This document shows positions 6,526-24,631 of a stretch of DNA of 64,000 nt, in pieces. This DNA comes from the human T2T-CHM13v2.0 reference genome, Homo sapiens. A program made the translations under genes and the position numbers. Location: the NCBI RefSeq assembly GCF_009914755.1, contig NC_060933.1, one strand, 5' to 3'. The notes beneath the pieces are model-generated. The model worked only from the letters and a program-made list of their open reading frames with translations, had not been told where the DNA came from and ran no database searches. Each line of letters begins with the position of its first letter. The first letter of the stretch is position 1.

Positions 6526-9500
6526 CCAGAAACTATTCAAAAATGATGATAAATATAAAAGATTTTTTTTGTTAAAGAATTTAGTCTAAAGCAAAAATAT
6601 TACCACTGTATTCTGGGGTTTATTACACACATAAAATTAAGATGTATGACAACAGCATAAATGATGCAAGAGAAATTGGAAGTATATTGTTGTAAGGTTC
6701 TTCTAACTATACATGAAGTGGTACACCATTTGAGGTTTGTATAAGTTGAACATGCATATTTTAAAACCTGGAGAAGCCACTGAAACCTTTTTTTAAATAA
6801 AGAGCTGTAACTAATAAGCCAATAATGGAGATAAAATCAAGAAAATACTCAATCCAAAAGAAAGTGAGAAAAAAGAAAATGGGACAAGTAGAAAATAGCA
6901 AAATGGCGAGATTACATTCAACCACATCCATAATTACTGTAAACTAATTTCCAATTAAAAGACATCAGATTGAATTAAAAAACAAGACCCATCGGTCTTC
7001 AAGATGGCTGATTAGAAGCATCTGGTACTCACCTTCTCCATAAAGAACCAAAATAGTGAATAGATAATCACAGTTCGAATAGATTATCTAGGAGAGAACA
7101 CTAAAATTCAACAGAGAAGTGAACAGGAAACACCTAAAACAAGGAAGGAGAGGGAAGTGAGGCAGCCTGCTCAGCTGGGATTGGCTGGGAGCCTGTAGAG
7201 ACTTCCCAATGAAGGGAAAGGGTAAGGGATAGACCCCCCAGCAGTCCACATTTTTATTGCAGACTCCTACAATCCTAACCACAGGAGAGCCCCCTCAATC
7301 CTTGTGGGCCCTGAGACTAACATAGGGAGCTGCTGGAAGACCATCTGATGGTATTGCTCCAGAAAGGGAGCTAAGGCTGAGTCTTGCATACCCTGAGTTC
7401 TAAGCAGCTACAGCAAGGTCCCATTTTGAGAGCCAGCACCTCCATGCGCCACCAGGCAGCCTGGGGACAGGTTTGCCTAGACTGGCTCTGTACCCCCTAG
7501 TCCCCGAGCACACTGTCAGGGGCCCTGGGGATTGCCCAGCTCAGCCCACCGCCATTGACGCCTGAGCACTCCTCCCAGGATCCTGAGGTCATCAGGCCCA
7601 CCCAACCTGCCACTACCATCACAGATGTCACCCACCTGTATATGCCACCCTGTGAGCCTAGGGACTGGCCCTCCCAGCCTGTCACAGCCACTGCCAATGC
7701 TAGCATGGACCACTCGGGAACCAGAGAACTGTCCCACCAGTGCTACTGCCTTGGCTTATGCCATGCTGACTATCCAGGGGCCTGACAAACTGCCTACCTG
7801 CTCAGCCCACCATTGTCACTACCCAGCACCCAAGCAAGCCAACTGGAGGGCCAAGAATCTGCCCATCTGAACCTGCTAATATACCAGTGACAGCATACCC
7901 CACCCGGGGGCCCAAGGACAGGCATGCTCAGCCCACTCGTGCCATCACCGAGAACTGAGGACCGGCCCACCTATGTCCCTGTCCGCAGCAAAACTTCACC
8001 ACAGCCTCCACTAAATGGACCCTAAGCCACTGAGAAAATCACAGACACCATTGACACTATTTATACCTAAAGAAAACATACAGAGACTACACTACTGCAC
8101 ACACTGAGAATCAAAGCCACAGTGCCCTACCCAACCAACACCACATATACATCTTCAGGAAAAAGTCCTCCACTATGAAAGCAAATCCAAAACAATTCGA
8201 AGAAGTTACTGTTAGAACAGATGTGCCGAGAAAAATGTAAGGACACAACAAACATGAAAAAGCAGGGAAATATAACACCTTCAAGGGCACACAATAATTC
8301 TCCAGCAACAGATTCCAATGAAAAAGAAATTTATGAAGTACCAGAAAAAGAATTCAAAATAATGATATTAAAGAAGCTCAGTGAGATAGAAGAGCACACA
8401 ACAAATACAAAAAATAATGAGAAATTTACCAAAGACGCAACGATCATGAAAAAAAAAAAACACCAAATTTTGGAACTGATGAATTCACTGAATGAAACAC
8501 AATATACATTTAAAAGCTTCAAAAATAGATCAAGCAGAACAAAGAATTGCAGAACTTGCAGACAGGTCTTTTGAAATAACCCAGTCAGACAAAAATAAAG
8601 AAAAAAGAATGAACAAAGCCTACATGACATATGGGACACCATAAAATGACCAATATTCAAATTTTTGGTGTTCCAGAATGCAAAGAGAAAAGGGATAGAA
8701 AATCCATTTAATGAAACAGTAGCTGAAAACTTCCCTGGTCTAGTAAGAGATTTAAAGATCCAATACAGGAAGTTTAGAGATCCCCAAACAGATGCAATTC
8801 AAAGAGGTCTTCACGACACATGGTCGTCAAATTTCAAAGACAGAGAATTCCAAAAACAGCAAGAGGATAGTGTCTAGTCACTTATAAGGGATCCCCCAAC
8901 TGACTAAGCAGAATTCTCAATGGAAACCCTACAGGCCAGGAAAGAATGGGATGGTATAGACAATGAGCTGAGAGAAAAAACTGCCAGCCAAGGACGCTAC
9001 ACCCAGCAAAGTTATCCATCATAAATGAATGAGAAGTAGTCTTTCCCAGACAAGCAACAGTTGAGGGAATTCATCACACTAGGTGAGCCCTACAAGAAAT
9101 GTTTAAGAGAGTCCTGGAAGGAAAACAATGATACACACCACCACAAAAACACAAAATTACAAACCCCACTGATAGAGCAAAGACACAAATGAGAAAGGAC
9201 TCAAACACTACCACTACAGAAAACCACCAAATCACAATAATAAATAAGAGAGAAAGGGAGGAACAAGGGATATATAAAACAAGTAGCTATCAAGTAATAA
9301 AATGACAGGAATTAGCTCTTACGTGTCAATAATAACCTTGAATGTAAACAGATTAAACTTTTCACTTGAAAGTTACAGGCTGGCCAAATGGATTTAAAAA
9401 AAAACGTGGCCCATCCGTAAGCTGCCTAAAAGAAACTCGTCTCACTTGTAAGAACATATACAGACAAATGAAAGACATGGAAAAAGAGATTCCAATCAAA

Positions 9501-11360: not shown

Positions 11361-13385
11361 CTGGCCAGAGTAATCAGACAAGAGAAAGAAGTAAAGGGCA
11401 TTGAAATTGGAAAAGAGAAAGTCAAACCATCGACGTTCATTGATGATATGATTGTATACCTAGAAAACCCTAAAGACTCATCCAAAAAGCTCCCAGATCT
11501 GATAAACAAACTCAGTAAAGTCTCAGGATACAAAATCAATGTACACCAATCCGTAGCACTGCTATATGCCAACAACGATCGAGCTGAGAATCAAATCAAG
11601 AACTCAATCCCTTTTAAAATAGCTGCAAAAAATAAAATAAAATACCTAGGAATATACTTAACCAAGGAGGTGAAAGATCTTTATAAGGAAGACTACAAAA
11701 CACTGCTGAAAGAAATAATAGATGACACAAATGGAAACACATTCCATGATCATGGATGGGTAGAATCAATATTGTGAAAATGATTACACTGCCTAAAGCA
11801 TTCTACAGATTCAATGCAATTCCCACAAAAATATCATCATCATTCTTCACAGAATGAGAAAAAACTCCTATAATTTATATGGAAGCCAAAGTGAGCCTGT
11901 GCAGCCAAAGCAATACTAAGCAAAAAGAACAAATCTGAAGGCATCACATTACCCCACTTTGACTGTACTATAAGGCTATAGCTACCAAAATAGCATGAGA
12001 CCAGTATAAAAACAGGCACATAGACCAATGCAACAGAATAGAGAGCACAGAAATAAAACGAAATACTTACACCTACCTGATCGTTGACGAAGCATACAAA
12101 AACATAAATTGAGGAAGGGATACCCTATTCAATAACTGGTACTGGAAAAATTGGCAAGCCACATGTAGAAGAATGAAACTGGATCCTCATCTCTCACCTT
12201 ATACAAAAATCAACTTAAGATGGATCAAAGACTTAAATCTAAGACCTGAAACCATAAAAATTCTAGAACATCAGAAAAACTGTTCTGGACATTAGCTTAG
12301 GCAAACACTCATGACTAAGGCCCCAAAAGCAAATGCAACAAAAATAAAAATAAATAAATGGGACCTAATTAAACTAAAAAGCTTCTGCACAGCAAAAGAA
12401 ATAGCAGAGATAACACACAGTGGGAGAAAATATTTGCAAACTATACATCTGAAAAAGGACTAATATCCAGAATCTACATTTGGATATTTGAACAAATTTG
12501 AACAAATCAGCAAGAAAAAAAAAACAAATAATCCCATCAAAAAGTGGGCAAAGGACACAAATAGACAATTTTCAACAGAAGATACACAGCCAACAAACAT
12601 ATGAAAAATGCTTAACATCATTAATTATCAGAGGAATGCAAATTAAAACCACAATGATACCACTTTACTCCTGCAAAAATAGTCGTAATTAAAAAGTCAA
12701 AAAACAATAGATATTGGTGTGGATTTGGTGAAAAGGGCATATTTTTACACTACTGGTGGGAATGTAAACTAGTACAACCACTATGGAAAACAGTATGGAG
12801 ATTCCTAAAGGTAGAATTACCATCTGATCCAGCAATCCCACTATTTGGTATCTACCCAAAGGAAAAGAAGTTATTATATGAAAAAGACACGTGCACACAC
12901 ATGCATGTTTATAGCAGCACAGTTCACAATTGCAAAGATAATGGAACCAACCTAAGTAACCCACCAACCAACAAGTGGATAAAGAAAATGTGGTATATAT
13001 ACACCATGGAATACTACTCAGCCACAGAAAGGAAAAAAATAATGTCTTTTGCAGCAAGTTGAATGGAGCCGGAGGCCATTATTCTAAGTGAGGTCATCAG
13101 GAATGGAAAACCAAATATGGCATGTTCTCACTTATAAGTGGGAGCTAAGCTATGAGGATGCAAAGCAGAAGAATGATATAATGCACTTTGGGGATTTGGA
13201 GGGGGTGGTGAGGGATAAAAGACTACATATTGGGATAAAAGCAGTGTACATTGCTTGGGTGATGGGTGTGCCAAAATCTCAGAAATCACCACTGAAGAAC
13301 TTATCCATGTAACCATGGATACTTTTGGTTACTTTTCCATGTAACCAAAAACCACCTGTACCCCAAAAACTATTGAAATAAAGAA
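11361..13385 (+). mobile_element. 5'-truncated L1PB
   Basis: ORF2 RT remnant ([10 protein letters not shown], 11448 ORF) through the 3' end CCAAAATCTCAGAAATCACCACT...CCCCAAAAACTATTGAAATAAA. Confidence 0.85.
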
Positions 13386-15002: not shown

Positions 15003-16036
15003 TCAAAAATCGGTAGTGTTTCTACACACCAATAATACACTAGCTGAGAAAGAAATCAAGAAGGCAATCCCACTTAAAATAGTTACAAAAAAATTTAAAT
15101 ACCTAGGAATAAATTTAACCAAGGAAGTGAAAGACCTCTACAAGGAAAACTGCCAAACATTGATAAAAGAAACTGAAAAGGACACAAACAAATGGAAAGA
15201 CATCCCAAGCATGTGGATCAGAAGAATTAATATTATTAAAATGACCATACTGCCCAAAGCATTCTACAGACTGAATACAACCTGTATCAAAATACCAATG
15301 CAATTTTTCACATAAATAGGAAAAAACACTCCTAAAATTCATATGGAACCAAAAAGAGCCCAAATAGCCAAAGGAATCCAGAGCAAAAAGAAAAGAGCTT
15401 GAGGCATCATACTACTTGACTTCAAAATATATTACAAGCCTATAGTAACCAAGACAGCATGGCATTAGTTTAAAAACAGAAACACAGACCAGTGGAGCGA
15501 AACAAAGAACACAGAAAGAAATCCATGTATTTACAGCTGACTGATTTTTGACAAAGGTGTGAAGAACATACATTGGGTGAAGAACACCTTCTTCAATAAA
15601 TTGTGCTAGGAAAACTGGATATACATATGCAGAAGAATGAAAGAAGACCCCCTACCTCTCACCACAACCAAAAACCAGTTCAAGATGGAGTAAATACTTA
15701 ACGTTAAGTCCTGAAACTATAGAACTACTAGAAGAAAACATATGAGAAACACCAGGACATTGATCTAGGCAAAGATTTTATGGCTAGGACCTCAAAAGCA
15801 CAGGCAACAAAAATAAAATTAGATGAGTGGGACCATACTAAATTAAAAAGCTTCTGCACAGCAAAGGAAACAATAAACAGACTGAAGAGATAGCCTGTTG
15901 AATGGGAGAAAATATCTGCAAACTATTTCTCTGATAAAGGACTAATAACCAGAATATATAGGAAGTCCAAGAACAGTAAAACAACAACAAATAATCTCAT
16001 TAAAAAGTGGGCAAAGAACATGAATAGACATTTCTT

Positions 16037-19691
<3,655 letters not shown>

Positions 19692-19786
19692 ATGAATAGA
19701 CATTTCTTAAAAGAAGACATACAAACGATCAACAGGAAATGTTCAACATCAGTAATCATCAGAGAAAAATCAAAATCATAATGAGG

Positions 19787-20075
19787 GGCTGGGCACGGTG
19801 GCTCAAGCCTGTAATCCCAGCACTTTGGGAGGCCAATGCGGGCGGATCACAAGGTCAGGAGTTTGAGACCAGCCTGACCAACATGGTGAACCCCCATCTC
19901 TACTAAAATTACACAAATAATTAGCTGGGTGTGGTGGCGTGTTGCCTGTAATCCCAGCTACGCAGGAGGCTGAGGCAGGAGAATCGCTTGAACCCCAGGA
20001 GGTGGAGGTTGCAGTGGGCTGAGGTCACACCACTGCACTCCGGCCTGGGCAACAAAGTGAGACTGTCTCAAAAAA
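19787..20075 (+). mobile_element. AluS (Sg-like), 5' part of a composite insertion
   Basis: Dimer beginning immediately after the TSD AAATCATAATGAGG. Confidence 0.93.
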
Positions 20076-20342
20076 TATATATATTTTTAATATAATATGC
20101 AATATATTTTATATAAGCTATGTAATATAATCTATATTATATATAATCTATAAGTTATAATCTATACTATAATCTATAAATTATAATCTATATTAATCTA
20201 TAATTATAACCTATATTATATAATCTATAATCTATATTATATAATCTATAGTTATATAATATATATAATTATATATAATATAGATAATATGTAACATACT
20301 ATCTAGATTACTTTATAATATAGATTATATAATATATATATA
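20076..20342. repeat. AT-rich degenerate minisatellite (TATAATCTA-like unit)
   Basis: Repeated TATAATCTATA units, with almost no G or C otherwise. Confidence 0.9.
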
Positions 20343-21038
20343 GTGTGTGTGGTGTGTGGGAGTGGGGAGCAGACTTGTCTTGCTGTCTTTGTCAGAAATT
20401 CTAAGGGCTGTGTCTTTGTGGATTACCTTCTTTTGTTCTTCCTGCCAGAGATCATGTGAGGAGGATGTTGGGGGTAGGATTAGCTTGAATTTTTTTTTTT
20501 CATTACACTCTTCTCCTGTCTGCTCCCTGCTTAGCCCTCTGTTTTCTCATTCCTCTGGAGTTATCTTGGAGCAGCCCCTGTTGTTAGTTGGCTGGTCTTC
20601 AAAACTCTCATGTTTAGGGTTGACAATGTTGGGGGTAGGGGATCCAGCTTATTCTTTTATTTTCAAGTCCATTCTTGGGGCTGGTGGGGAGGCAGAATGC
20701 CCCTCCCTAAGCCCTTAGTGTGTGCTGAGCTTGCTTTTTGATGTTGGCAGTGGAGGGGGAACCTCCCCTCCAGTCTCCAGGGTGGTGACTGAGTTTCCTA
20801 TATCAAACCCTTCAATGGGCACAAAATGGGAGTGCTTGATTTCAGGTTTTATTTTTTTCATGAATGTCCAAATCTGTGTTTCTCCCTGCCCTCCCAGACT
20901 GTGTGGTCAGTTGAAAGTGTCTGGTTTGTGTTCGTCTCTCCCTCATTTCCGGAGCAAGGCCTGAGACCCTGCCACATCTCCTATGCTCTGCATCCATGCC
21001 TCCTTTGGACATTAAAGGTTGACTGATGCAATAATAAT
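20343..21038 (+). pseudogene. Processed retrocopy of an mRNA 3'UTR end (parent unconfirmed)
   Basis: Non-repeat, UTR-like sequence ending ATTAAA (21011-21016), 13 nt, an (AAT)n tail, then the TSD. Confidence 0.75.
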
Positions 21039-22800
21039 AAATCATAATGAGGTCTCACTTTACATTAGAATACGTATTATTAAAAAGCAAAAAAAAATTA
21101 CAGATGCTGGTGAGGATGTACAGAAAAGGGAACTCAAACTGTTGGTGGAAATGTAAATTAGTTCAGCCACTATGGAAAACAATAGAGAAAAAAACTAAAA
21201 ATAGAACTACCATACCACCTAGCAATTCTTCTACTGGGCATTTATCCAAAGGAAATCAGTATACCAGAAGGATACATGCACTCCCATGTTTTTGACAGCT
21301 CTACTGACAGCAAAGATAAGGAATCAACCTAAGTGTCCATCAACAGATGAACAGACAAAGGAAATGTGGTCTAGATACACAATGGAGTACTATTCAGTCA
21401 TAAAAGAGAGTGAAATCATGTCATTTACGGCAACATTGATGGATCTGGAGGACATTAAGTTAAATAAGCCAGGCAGAGAAAGACAAATACTGCATGTTCT
21501 CACTCATATGTGGGAGCTAAGAAAGTTGATCTCAGGGAGGTAGTGAGTAGAATGATAGCCATCAGAGGATGGGAAGGGCATATGGGTGGGAGTGGCTATG
21601 AAGAGAGGTTGGTTAATGGGTACAAACATACAGTTAGATAGAGTAAGTTCTAATGTTTGTTACAAAGTTGGGTGACTATAGTTAATAGTTAACAACAATG
21701 TATATTTCAAAATAACTAGAAAAGAGGACTTGGAATGTTCCTAATATATAGAAATAAATATTCAAGGTGATTGATACCCCAAATACCCTAAATTGATTAT
21801 CACACATTCTATACATGTAACAATATCACATGTGCCCTATATAAATATGTACAAATACTATGCATTAATTAAAATTTAAAAAGCAAGACCAAGGTATGTG
21901 CTGTTAATAAGAAACCCATTTTAAATATTAAGGTAGGTTAAAAGTGAAAAAATAAGGGAAAAAAACAACAGTGCATGCAAATACTGGTAAACTCCAAACA
22001 AGGTCTGTCAGTAGTTTAGTAATAGTATTGTACCAATGTCAACTTCAAGGTTTTAATAATATGGTTACTTAAAATGCTATCTTTGGGGGAAGCTGGGTGA
22101 GAGTACACAGAACTCTCTGTATTATTTGTGTAATTTCTCATGTCTTTACTAGCATCTAGGAAACTGTAACAGACTAACTTATTAGATTGTAAATAGGGTA
22201 AACTCAAATAGCAGACTTAGCAATTTTGTTGAGAAAGGAAGGATGCTGATAGACATGGATTTCTGGATTAGGAAGGACAAGGCTCTGCAGGCCGGTTCAA
22301 GAAAATAAGACTCCCAAGATCCAGTAATGAATACGATTGCCCTACTTCTTCCCGTTTATATGCTGAGCTGCTAGAAGCAGGACTGAAAGAAGTCACCCAA
22401 ATAATAACTTCATTGTTGCTCACTCTCTTCCAGGCAGAAAGAAGAAATGTTATGACAACAGAGCAGCAAGTCCCATGGTCCTAGCTAAAAGGCGGTACGG
22501 CTGTGACTGCTGAGATGGAGAGTCCTCAAAGGTAAATTAATGTGTCAGCAATGAAGGCTTTGCTATTTAATATAGAGCTTTGAGTGACCTGAAGACAGAA
22601 GTTAATTTGGTTGAATTGAGCATGGGTGGCCACTTAAAAGTGAGTGAAGGAAACACCTTGCCTAATAGTATAAAGGCAAACACCTGGTTCCTGTCAACAG
22701 TCCAACCTGGCTTATAATGAGGACAGGGCTCTGGGTGCCAGGGCAGCCAAGGCTGAAAGACTGCAGGGCAGAACACAGTGGGGTGAGCATGGACAGAAAG

Positions 22801-24631
<1,831 letters not shown>

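What the first reader, a model, noticed from the sequence alone, without database searches (positions are those of the whole stretch)
19773..21052. Chimeric retro-insertion: Alu + AT repeat + cellular mRNA 3'UTR under one TSD
Seen: the 14-bp duplication AAATCATAATGAGG (19773-19786 and 21039-21052) brackets a complete Alu that starts at the first base after the TSD. A 270-bp AT repeat follows, then ~690 bp of non-repeat UTR-like sequence ending ATTAAA-13 nt-A-rich tail. The host L1MA reads through cleanly when the whole block is removed, and the Alu has no TSD of its own. Inference: one integration event, either by L1 RT template switching from an mRNA to an Alu RNA, or by remobilisation of a pre-existing Alu-pseudogene locus. 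The 3' end reminds me of the PIP5K1A 3'UTR, but that is unverified recall.
Basis: partly seen in the sequence, partly recalled or inferred. Interest (0 to 1): 0.7.

Follow-up and report, generated by a model that had tools for sequence, protein, structure and literature searches.

The report
DYNLL2 3'UTR retrocopy behind an Alu
A fragment of the DYNLL2 messenger RNA's tail end sits directly behind an old Alu repeat inside one target-site duplication, most likely because it was later pasted into the Alu's A-rich tail, which would make it an ordinary fossil of LINE-1 activity rather than a one-step chimera.

Summary
The anatomy is real. A 14-bp duplication (two copies in 64 kb) brackets a full-length AluSg-like element, a 270-bp AT tract and 690 bp of mRNA 3' end, inside an old L1 that reads through. 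The mRNA is DYNLL2 (chr17), not PIP5K1A: 94.7% identity at aligned sites, 5'-truncated, lacking 667 internal nt, ending 13 nt after ATTAAA with a non-templated tail. No second Alu-UTR copy was found, and the 10-kb DYNLL2 locus holds no Alu.

One bracketing duplication does not prove one event. Among 23 scorable tandem Alu pairs, 5 show the same outer-duplication-only layout, and in 4 of these the 3' element is the younger subfamily. Best reading (0.6): the Alu came first and the DYNLL2 cDNA later inserted into its A-tail; tail expansion then hid the inner duplication. A single template-switch chimera, like the published Alu/L1 chimeras, remains possible (0.22), and dating cannot separate the two. 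Primate orthologues would decide.

One post hoc lead: both points where the copy leaves DYNLL2 lie 31-38 nt 3' of the UTR's two strongest G-quadruplex motifs. Low interest.

The parts
19693..19772 (+). old sense-strand L1 host, left flank (between the neighbouring antisense L1 and the insertion)
   Evidence: aligns at ~70% to two other L1 copies in the window
19773..19786 (+). 5' copy of the 14-bp TSD; 15 bp with 19772, TC/AAAA endonuclease-type site
19787..20075 (+). full-length Alu, AluSg-like (2-bp deletion near position 65, no Sc/Y diagnostics; diagnostics recalled), with A6
   Evidence: 18 of 23 CpG sites lost; 12 of 211 non-CpG differences to the Sg-like majority
20076..20343 (.). AT-rich low-complexity tract grown from the Alu tail (inferred); no recognisable inner TSD
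   Evidence: similar tracts follow unrelated Alus L021 and L022
20344..20596 (+). DYNLL2 3'UTR copy, 5' segment (C17:58963885-58964138); 5' truncation point blurred over ~10 nt
   Evidence: 231 matches, 13 mismatches over 20350-20595
20595..20597 (+). junction of the 667-nt internal deletion (L004 6141-6807), 2-nt GC microhomology plus one C>T change
20597..21030 (+). DYNLL2 3'UTR copy, 3' segment (C17:58964807-58965225), including 15 nt (20765-20779) absent from human DYNLL2
   Evidence: 393 matches, 22 mismatches
21011..21016 (+). ATTAAA poly(A) signal, shared with DYNLL2
21030..21038 (+). degenerate non-templated A-rich tail
   Evidence: source has 1 A in the 20 nt after the cleavage point
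21039..21052 (+). 3' copy of the TSD
21053..21200 (+). old L1 host, right flank, collinear with the left flank

Best explanation
This is a 5'-truncated, internally deleted copy of the DYNLL2 3'UTR lying directly behind an AluSg-like element within one duplication, likely made by two successive LINE-1-driven insertions in which the mRNA copy entered the A-tail of the already present Alu. Shown: parent gene, poly(A) signal with non-templated tail, one bracketing TSD, host read-through. Inferred step 1: the Alu inserted at the TC/AAAA site in the old L1 and made the 14-15-bp TSD, very roughly 30 million years ago (rate recalled). Inferred step 2: L1 ORF2p nicked in the Alu tail and reverse-transcribed a DYNLL2 mRNA cleaved at the ATTAAA ~1.9 kb after the stop. 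It skipped 667 nt at a 2-nt microhomology (or the segment was deleted later in DNA) and stopped ~690 nt in. Inferred step 3: the second insertion's own duplication was A-rich tail sequence; its 5' copy was absorbed as the tail grew into the 270-bp AT tract. It is most likely a non-functional fossil.
For: Parent: of the whole genome, only DYNLL2 and this locus match the UTR part; exon 2 is 44/44 identical to dynein light chain 2. Tail insertion is common: 5,036 of 310,907 strict Alu 5' motifs follow a strict Alu 3' motif within 4-30 nt, or about 6% after correcting for the 14 of 53 Alus that keep the 3' motif. It reproduces this layout: 5 of 23 scorable tandem pairs have an outer TSD only, and 4 of the 5 pair an older 5' with a younger 3' subfamily. 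The window's own pair at 23280-23873 shows a degenerate outer and a partial inner copy. AT expansion erodes TSDs: only 7 nt survive behind the tract in L022. The Alu's one-branch divergence (about 4.5-5.7%) is as large as the retrocopy's two-branch divergence (31 of 651, 4.8%), which leans towards the Alu being older. There is no A-run in DYNLL2 at the junction that would let the cDNA pair with an Alu tail.
Against: No inner TSD was found: the best match in the tract was reached by 11.6% of shuffles and by 436 of 3,368 AAA-start 14-mers. Equal age is not rejected (P 0.08-0.67 for 10 Alu changes, depending on how constrained the DYNLL2 UTR is). Full-length sense Alus co-arriving with a 5'-truncated partner under one TSD are published (452 Alu/L1 cases, PMC13174262), and ORF2p jumps templates in vitro (PMC10830420). 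The control is small and non-random: the first 30 of 5,036 matches, all distal chr1p; 7 dropped because the first Alu's 5' end was not found; 8 of 23 had no detectable TSD; two of the five outer TSDs are only 7 and 9 nt; subfamily calls came from crude recalled motifs.
Confidence: 0.6

Rival explanations
1. One TPRT event: ORF2p primed on the DYNLL2 poly(A), stalled, skipped 667 nt, stalled again and switched to (or was pre-ligated with) an Alu RNA, which it copied to its 5' end.
For: One exact TSD, with the Alu starting at the first base after it. No inner TSD. Ages compatible. Same layout as the Alu/L1 chimeras: full-length, sense Alu 5' of a truncated partner. The internal skip suggests a jump-prone reaction, and both exit points lie 31-38 nt 3' of G4 motifs; ORF2p stops at a G4 in vitro (PMC10830416).
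Against: The single-TSD layout also arises from sequential insertion. The prior is lower: a few hundred Alu/L1 candidates genome-wide, 77% on one long branch where sequential events cannot be resolved (the last point is my inference), against about 1-2% of insertions expected to look like this by the tail route (estimate). No junction homology to an A-tail. Doucet et al. call snRNA/Alu chimeras very rare and not reproduced experimentally.
Confidence: 0.22
2. The retrocopy came first; an Alu later re-used the endonuclease site preserved in the 5' TSD with the same second nick, and the middle TSD copy decayed inside the AT tract.
For: Seen in the controls: L048 has three TSD copies with the younger Alu 5'. 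DYNLL2 has TGAG about 11 nt upstream of the apparent truncation point, matching the TSD end, which could be an old 5'-junction microhomology (weak, expected by chance in roughly 1 of 10-15 cases).
Against: The Alu does not look younger than the retrocopy (P of as few changes >= 0.37 in all cells). It needs an identical second nick and near-total loss of the GAGG end; the last 32 nt of the tract match the TSD no better than 57% of shuffles.
Confidence: 0.13
3. A pre-existing Alu-DYNLL2 composite elsewhere was transcribed and re-retrotransposed as a unit.
For: It would give one TSD and an Alu start at the first base.
Against: No second copy of the UTR part. The best other Alu is 88% identical (40 of 9,794 candidates scored). 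The 10-kb DYNLL2 locus has no Alu. T-runs in the tract would end Pol III transcription (established knowledge).
Confidence: 0.05

Closest known systems
Processed pseudogene / 3'UTR-only mRNA retrocopy made by L1 ORF2p in trans
   Same: Sense copy of an mRNA 3' end, poly(A) signal, non-templated tail, 5' truncation, TSD at an endonuclease-type site.
   Different: No coding part, so no exon junction to test; carries a 667-nt internal deletion; its 5' end abuts an Alu tail rather than the TSD.
Tandem insertions into Alu A-tails (tandem Alu pairs; El-Sawy and Deininger 2005, title seen only as a search term hit, content recalled)
   Same: Second element in the same orientation right behind an Alu tail; often only the outer TSD is visible (5 of 23).
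   Different: The 3' partner is a cellular mRNA, not an Alu, and the spacer has expanded to 270 bp.
Alu/LINE-1 chimeric insertions (Law and Burns; preprint 113 cases, Cell Genomics 452 cases)
   Same: Full-length sense Alu 5' of a truncated L1-made cDNA under one TSD; AluS is a common partner.
   Different: The 3' partner is DYNLL2 mRNA, outside their L1-anchored catalogue; their defining test, co-arrival in primate alignments, could not be run here.
U6/L1 and U6/mRNA chimeras (Doucet et al. 2015; Moldovan et al. 2019, abstract start only)
   Same: Full-length Pol III RNA 5', truncated polyadenylated RNA 3', one TSD.
   Different: U6 joins directly, by ligation or template switch, with no A-tail; here an A-tail-derived tract separates the parts.

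Membership tests
L1-made mRNA retrocopy | unique parent transcript, sense orientation | tested here: met
   DYNLL2 3'UTR, 624 of 659 aligned sites identical
L1-made mRNA retrocopy | ends at a poly(A) site with a non-templated A-tail | tested here: met
   ATTAAA + 13 nt; source not A-rich beyond
L1-made mRNA retrocopy | TSD at an L1 endonuclease-type site | tested here: met
   14-15 bp, TC/AAAA; whether this TSD is the retrocopy's own is open
L1-made mRNA retrocopy | loss of annotated introns | tested here: inconclusive
   copy lies within the last exon; the 667-nt gap fits a GC microhomology with 1 change, but a GC-AG intron only with 3 changes
Single-event Alu/RNA chimera | one TSD around both parts | tested here: met
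   not specific,
Single-event Alu/RNA chimera | 5' partner full-length and sense | tested here: met
Single-event Alu/RNA chimera | both parts of equal age | tested here: inconclusive
   not rejected, point estimates lean to an older Alu
Single-event Alu/RNA chimera | co-arrival in primate orthologues | not testable with these tools
   no relatives of this genome are held
Sequential insertion into an Alu tail | inner A-rich duplication of the second element | tested here: inconclusive
   no significant remnant; region overwritten by the AT tract
Sequential insertion into an Alu tail | Alu-only intermediate in another species | not testable with these tools
   no primate genomes
Remobilised composite / transduction | donor locus carrying both parts | tested here: not met

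The most novel reading that the evidence does not exclude
One L1 reverse-transcription run on DYNLL2 mRNA stalled twice in front of RNA G-quadruplexes. It first jumped 667 nt along the same transcript and then jumped onto an Alu RNA, leaving an Alu/mRNA chimera that records G4-triggered template jumping in the primate germ line.
Probability: 0.12. Interest if true: 0.55.

Novelty: new member of a known kind. Interest (0 to 1): 0.22.

Why it matters
As a locus it matters little: an unannotated UTR-only DYNLL2 retrocopy in intron 1 of CARNMT1-AS1 (hub annotation). It does record that a DYNLL2 poly(A) site about 1.9 kb after the stop codon was in use when the copy was made. The general point is methodological: one bracketing TSD is not proof of a chimeric insertion, because insertion into an Alu tail gives the same picture; this may also apply to part of the published Alu/L1 chimera catalogue (my inference). 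If the single-event reading held, the locus would extend Alu chimeras to cellular mRNA partners. The G4 spacing would then suggest a testable cause of 5' truncation and internal deletion in retrocopies.

Tried and rejected
PIP5K1A as parent: no such match; DYNLL2 instead. Second copy or donor of the composite: none. Other DYNLL2 3'UTR retrocopies to polarise changes: none; other hits were LC8 coding paralogues or pseudogenes at 71-78% and (TG)n repeats (40 of 53 candidates scored). Alu inside the DYNLL2 locus: no hit in 10 kb. Internal priming on a genomic A-run: rejected. RNA stem joining the two deletion breakpoints: pairing probability ~1e-7, duplex energy matched or beaten by 45% of random pairs. 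Spliced 3'UTR intron: needs 3 changes against 1; disfavoured, not excluded without transcript data. Hidden middle TSD: not significant. Polarising substitutions by weak/strong bias (15 vs 10 non-CpG) or CpG loss (2 vs 2): uninformative. Rfam: only Alu-derived SRP and miRNA-family matches below gathering scores. The first PDB search was out of frame and empty; repeated in frame. Literature: no description of this locus in the listings of searches 20 (none of 20 listed papers mention DYNLL2), 22, 30, 46, 48 and 56. Buzdin et al. 2003 and Garcia-Perez et al. 2007 were not held, so whether Alu/mRNA chimeras were already listed there is unchecked.

Full report
Observation. The 14-mer at 19773-19786 recurs exactly at 21039-21052 and nowhere else in the window. 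With one tail-end mismatch it is 15 bp and starts at a TC/AAAA site, a usual variant of the L1 endonuclease target (established knowledge). The Alu begins at 19787 and is full length. An AT-rich tract follows to about 20343, then 690 bp of unique sequence ending ATTAAA, 13 nt and a 9-nt A-rich tail. The flanks align collinearly, within 2 nt, to another old L1 copy in the window. The subfamily label L1MA was not testable.

Parent. A whole-genome search with 20343-21038 gave three matches: the locus itself and two pieces on chr17 at 92% and 90% (2 of 2 candidates scored). The chr17 locus encodes an LC8 dynein light chain whose first coding exon is identical over 44 residues to dynein light chain 2. 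The parent is therefore DYNLL2 and the PIP5K1A recall is wrong. The copy starts about 600 nt after the stop codon, lacks L004 6141-6807 (667 nt), and ends at 7226, where the gene continues with non-A sequence. The tail is thus a real mRNA tail from a poly(A) site about 1.9 kb after the stop. The two segments differ from the gene at 13 of 244 and 22 of 415 aligned sites. A reverse search with the last exon found no other UTR copy, the whole block found no second composite, and the 10-kb DYNLL2 locus has no Alu. Remobilisation is unsupported.

Internal deletion. The junction fits a 2-nt GC microhomology plus one C>T change; a GC-AG intron would need three changes. No RNA stem joins the breakpoints. 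Both places where the copy leaves the gene (about 5886 and 6806) lie 31 and 38 nt 3' of two of the three canonical G4 motifs in the 1,944-nt UTR, which are its two highest G4Hunter peaks. Only 6% (strict) to 13% (loose, 50 nt) of positions are that close. This was noticed post hoc, the offset is larger than a stall at the G4 edge would give, and a later G4-linked DNA deletion predicts the same geometry (recalled). Purified ORF2p does stop at the L1 3'UTR G-quadruplex (PMC10830416, passages) and can jump templates (PMC10830420, passages). It is a lead only.

One event or two. I tested this on tandem Alus. A strict Alu-end-then-Alu-start pattern occurs 5,036 times (reversed control 0) against 310,907 Alu starts. 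That is 1.6%, or about 6% given that 14 of 53 Alus keep the end motif. Of the first 30 loci, 7 were dropped because the first Alu's 5' end was not found. Of the remaining 23, 5 had an outer TSD only, 1 outer plus inner, 6 a TSD of the first Alu, 3 a TSD of the second, and 8 none. In 4 of the 5 outer-only pairs the 3' Alu is of a younger subfamily and keeps more CpGs (S/Y, Sg/Y, S/Y, J/S), which is most simply read as later insertion into the tail. The fifth pair is S/S. The sample is small, from distal chr1p, and subfamilies were called with crude recalled motifs. Unrelated Alus also grow long AT tracts (L021, L022), and in L022 only 7 nt of the TSD survive behind the tract. An inner duplication here could therefore have vanished. 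Direct search for it was negative: 11.6% of shuffles scored as well in the tract, 57% in its last 32 nt.

Dating. The Alu has the 2-bp deletion of the Sg/Sc/Y branch without Sc/Y diagnostics (recalled). It has lost 18 of 23 CpGs and differs at 15 of 232 non-CpG sites from a mixed majority. Against the majority of 18 other Sg-like copies it differs at 12 of 211 sites (their median is 5.2%); by inspection two or three of the 12 are CpG or alignment artefacts. The retrocopy differs from DYNLL2 at 31 of 651 non-CpG sites summed over both branches. Equal age is not rejected: for 10 Alu changes P is 0.08-0.67, and 0.02-0.76 over the whole grid of 9-12 changes and source rates. A younger Alu has no support.

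Literature. Law and Burns report Alu/L1 chimeras with exactly this layout: 113 in the preprint (part 1 of 11 and passages) and 452 in the journal version (passages), 77% of them on the branch before the New World/Old World monkey split. Their criterion is co-arrival in alignments plus a TSD; their catalogue is anchored on L1, and I did not open the supplements. Doucet et al. (passages) describe snRNA/Alu chimeras as rare and treat one case as two independent events. Gogvadze et al. (passages) describe double template jumps. Alu tails as a source of microsatellites are reviewed in PMC3812793 (passages). Kojima 2010, Casola and Betran 2017 and Pfister et al. 2006 were seen as passages only and do not mention this locus in what I saw. 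Buzdin 2003 was not available, so earlier Alu/mRNA examples cannot be excluded. No listing in searches or 56 describes a DYNLL2 retrocopy on chr9.

Verdict. The tail-insertion route is expected to give this picture for roughly 1-2% of insertions (my estimate). True Alu chimeras number at most a few hundred genome-wide. The ages lean slightly to an older Alu. I put Alu-first sequential insertion at 0.6, a single-event chimera at 0.22, Alu-second at 0.13 and remobilisation at 0.05. Either way the products belong to known kinds, and nothing indicates function. The copy lies sense in intron 1 of CARNMT1-AS1 (hub annotation), where its ATTAAA could in principle act as an intronic poly(A) site, which is untested. 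Primate orthologues, not held here, are the deciding evidence.

Noticed in passing
window 16021-19708: A 5'-truncated antisense L1 (16037-19692) sits 80 bp from the finding in the same old L1 host, with its own 16-bp TSD (16021-16036, 19693-19708). About 180 bp of unique sequence (16051-16232) lies between its poly-T and its 3' end and matches G000:C3:1114751-1114932 at 97%; no L1 body continues the match at that chr3 site in the 3.2 kb held. Likely a 3' transduction whose donor L1 is absent from this genome.
   Followed up: partly
window 23249-23886: Tandem Alu pair with a degenerate outer TSD and a partial inner copy: a same-window example of insertion into an Alu tail.
   Followed up: partly
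window 20765-20779: 15 nt present in the retrocopy but not in human DYNLL2. The first 8 nt are an inverted copy of sequence just upstream, and its last 8 nt plus the next 6 match DYNLL2 about 80 nt beyond the poly(A) site (L004 ~7308-7321). It is either a templated insertion in the copy or a deletion in the gene; not polarised.
   Followed up: partly
L004 5834-5858 and 6747-6772: The two strongest G-quadruplex motifs of the DYNLL2 3'UTR lie just 5' of the retrocopy's truncation and deletion points; post hoc.
   Followed up: partly
L021 (G000:C3:185457646) and window 20070-20115: An Alu of a different subfamily has a tail that begins with a nearly identical ~20-nt AT motif; read as convergent decay of A-tails.
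   Followed up: no
window 11361-13143: Further antisense-L1-like and sense old-L1 sequence upstream aligns to the elements around the finding, so the region is a nest of several L1 and Alu insertions.
   Followed up: no
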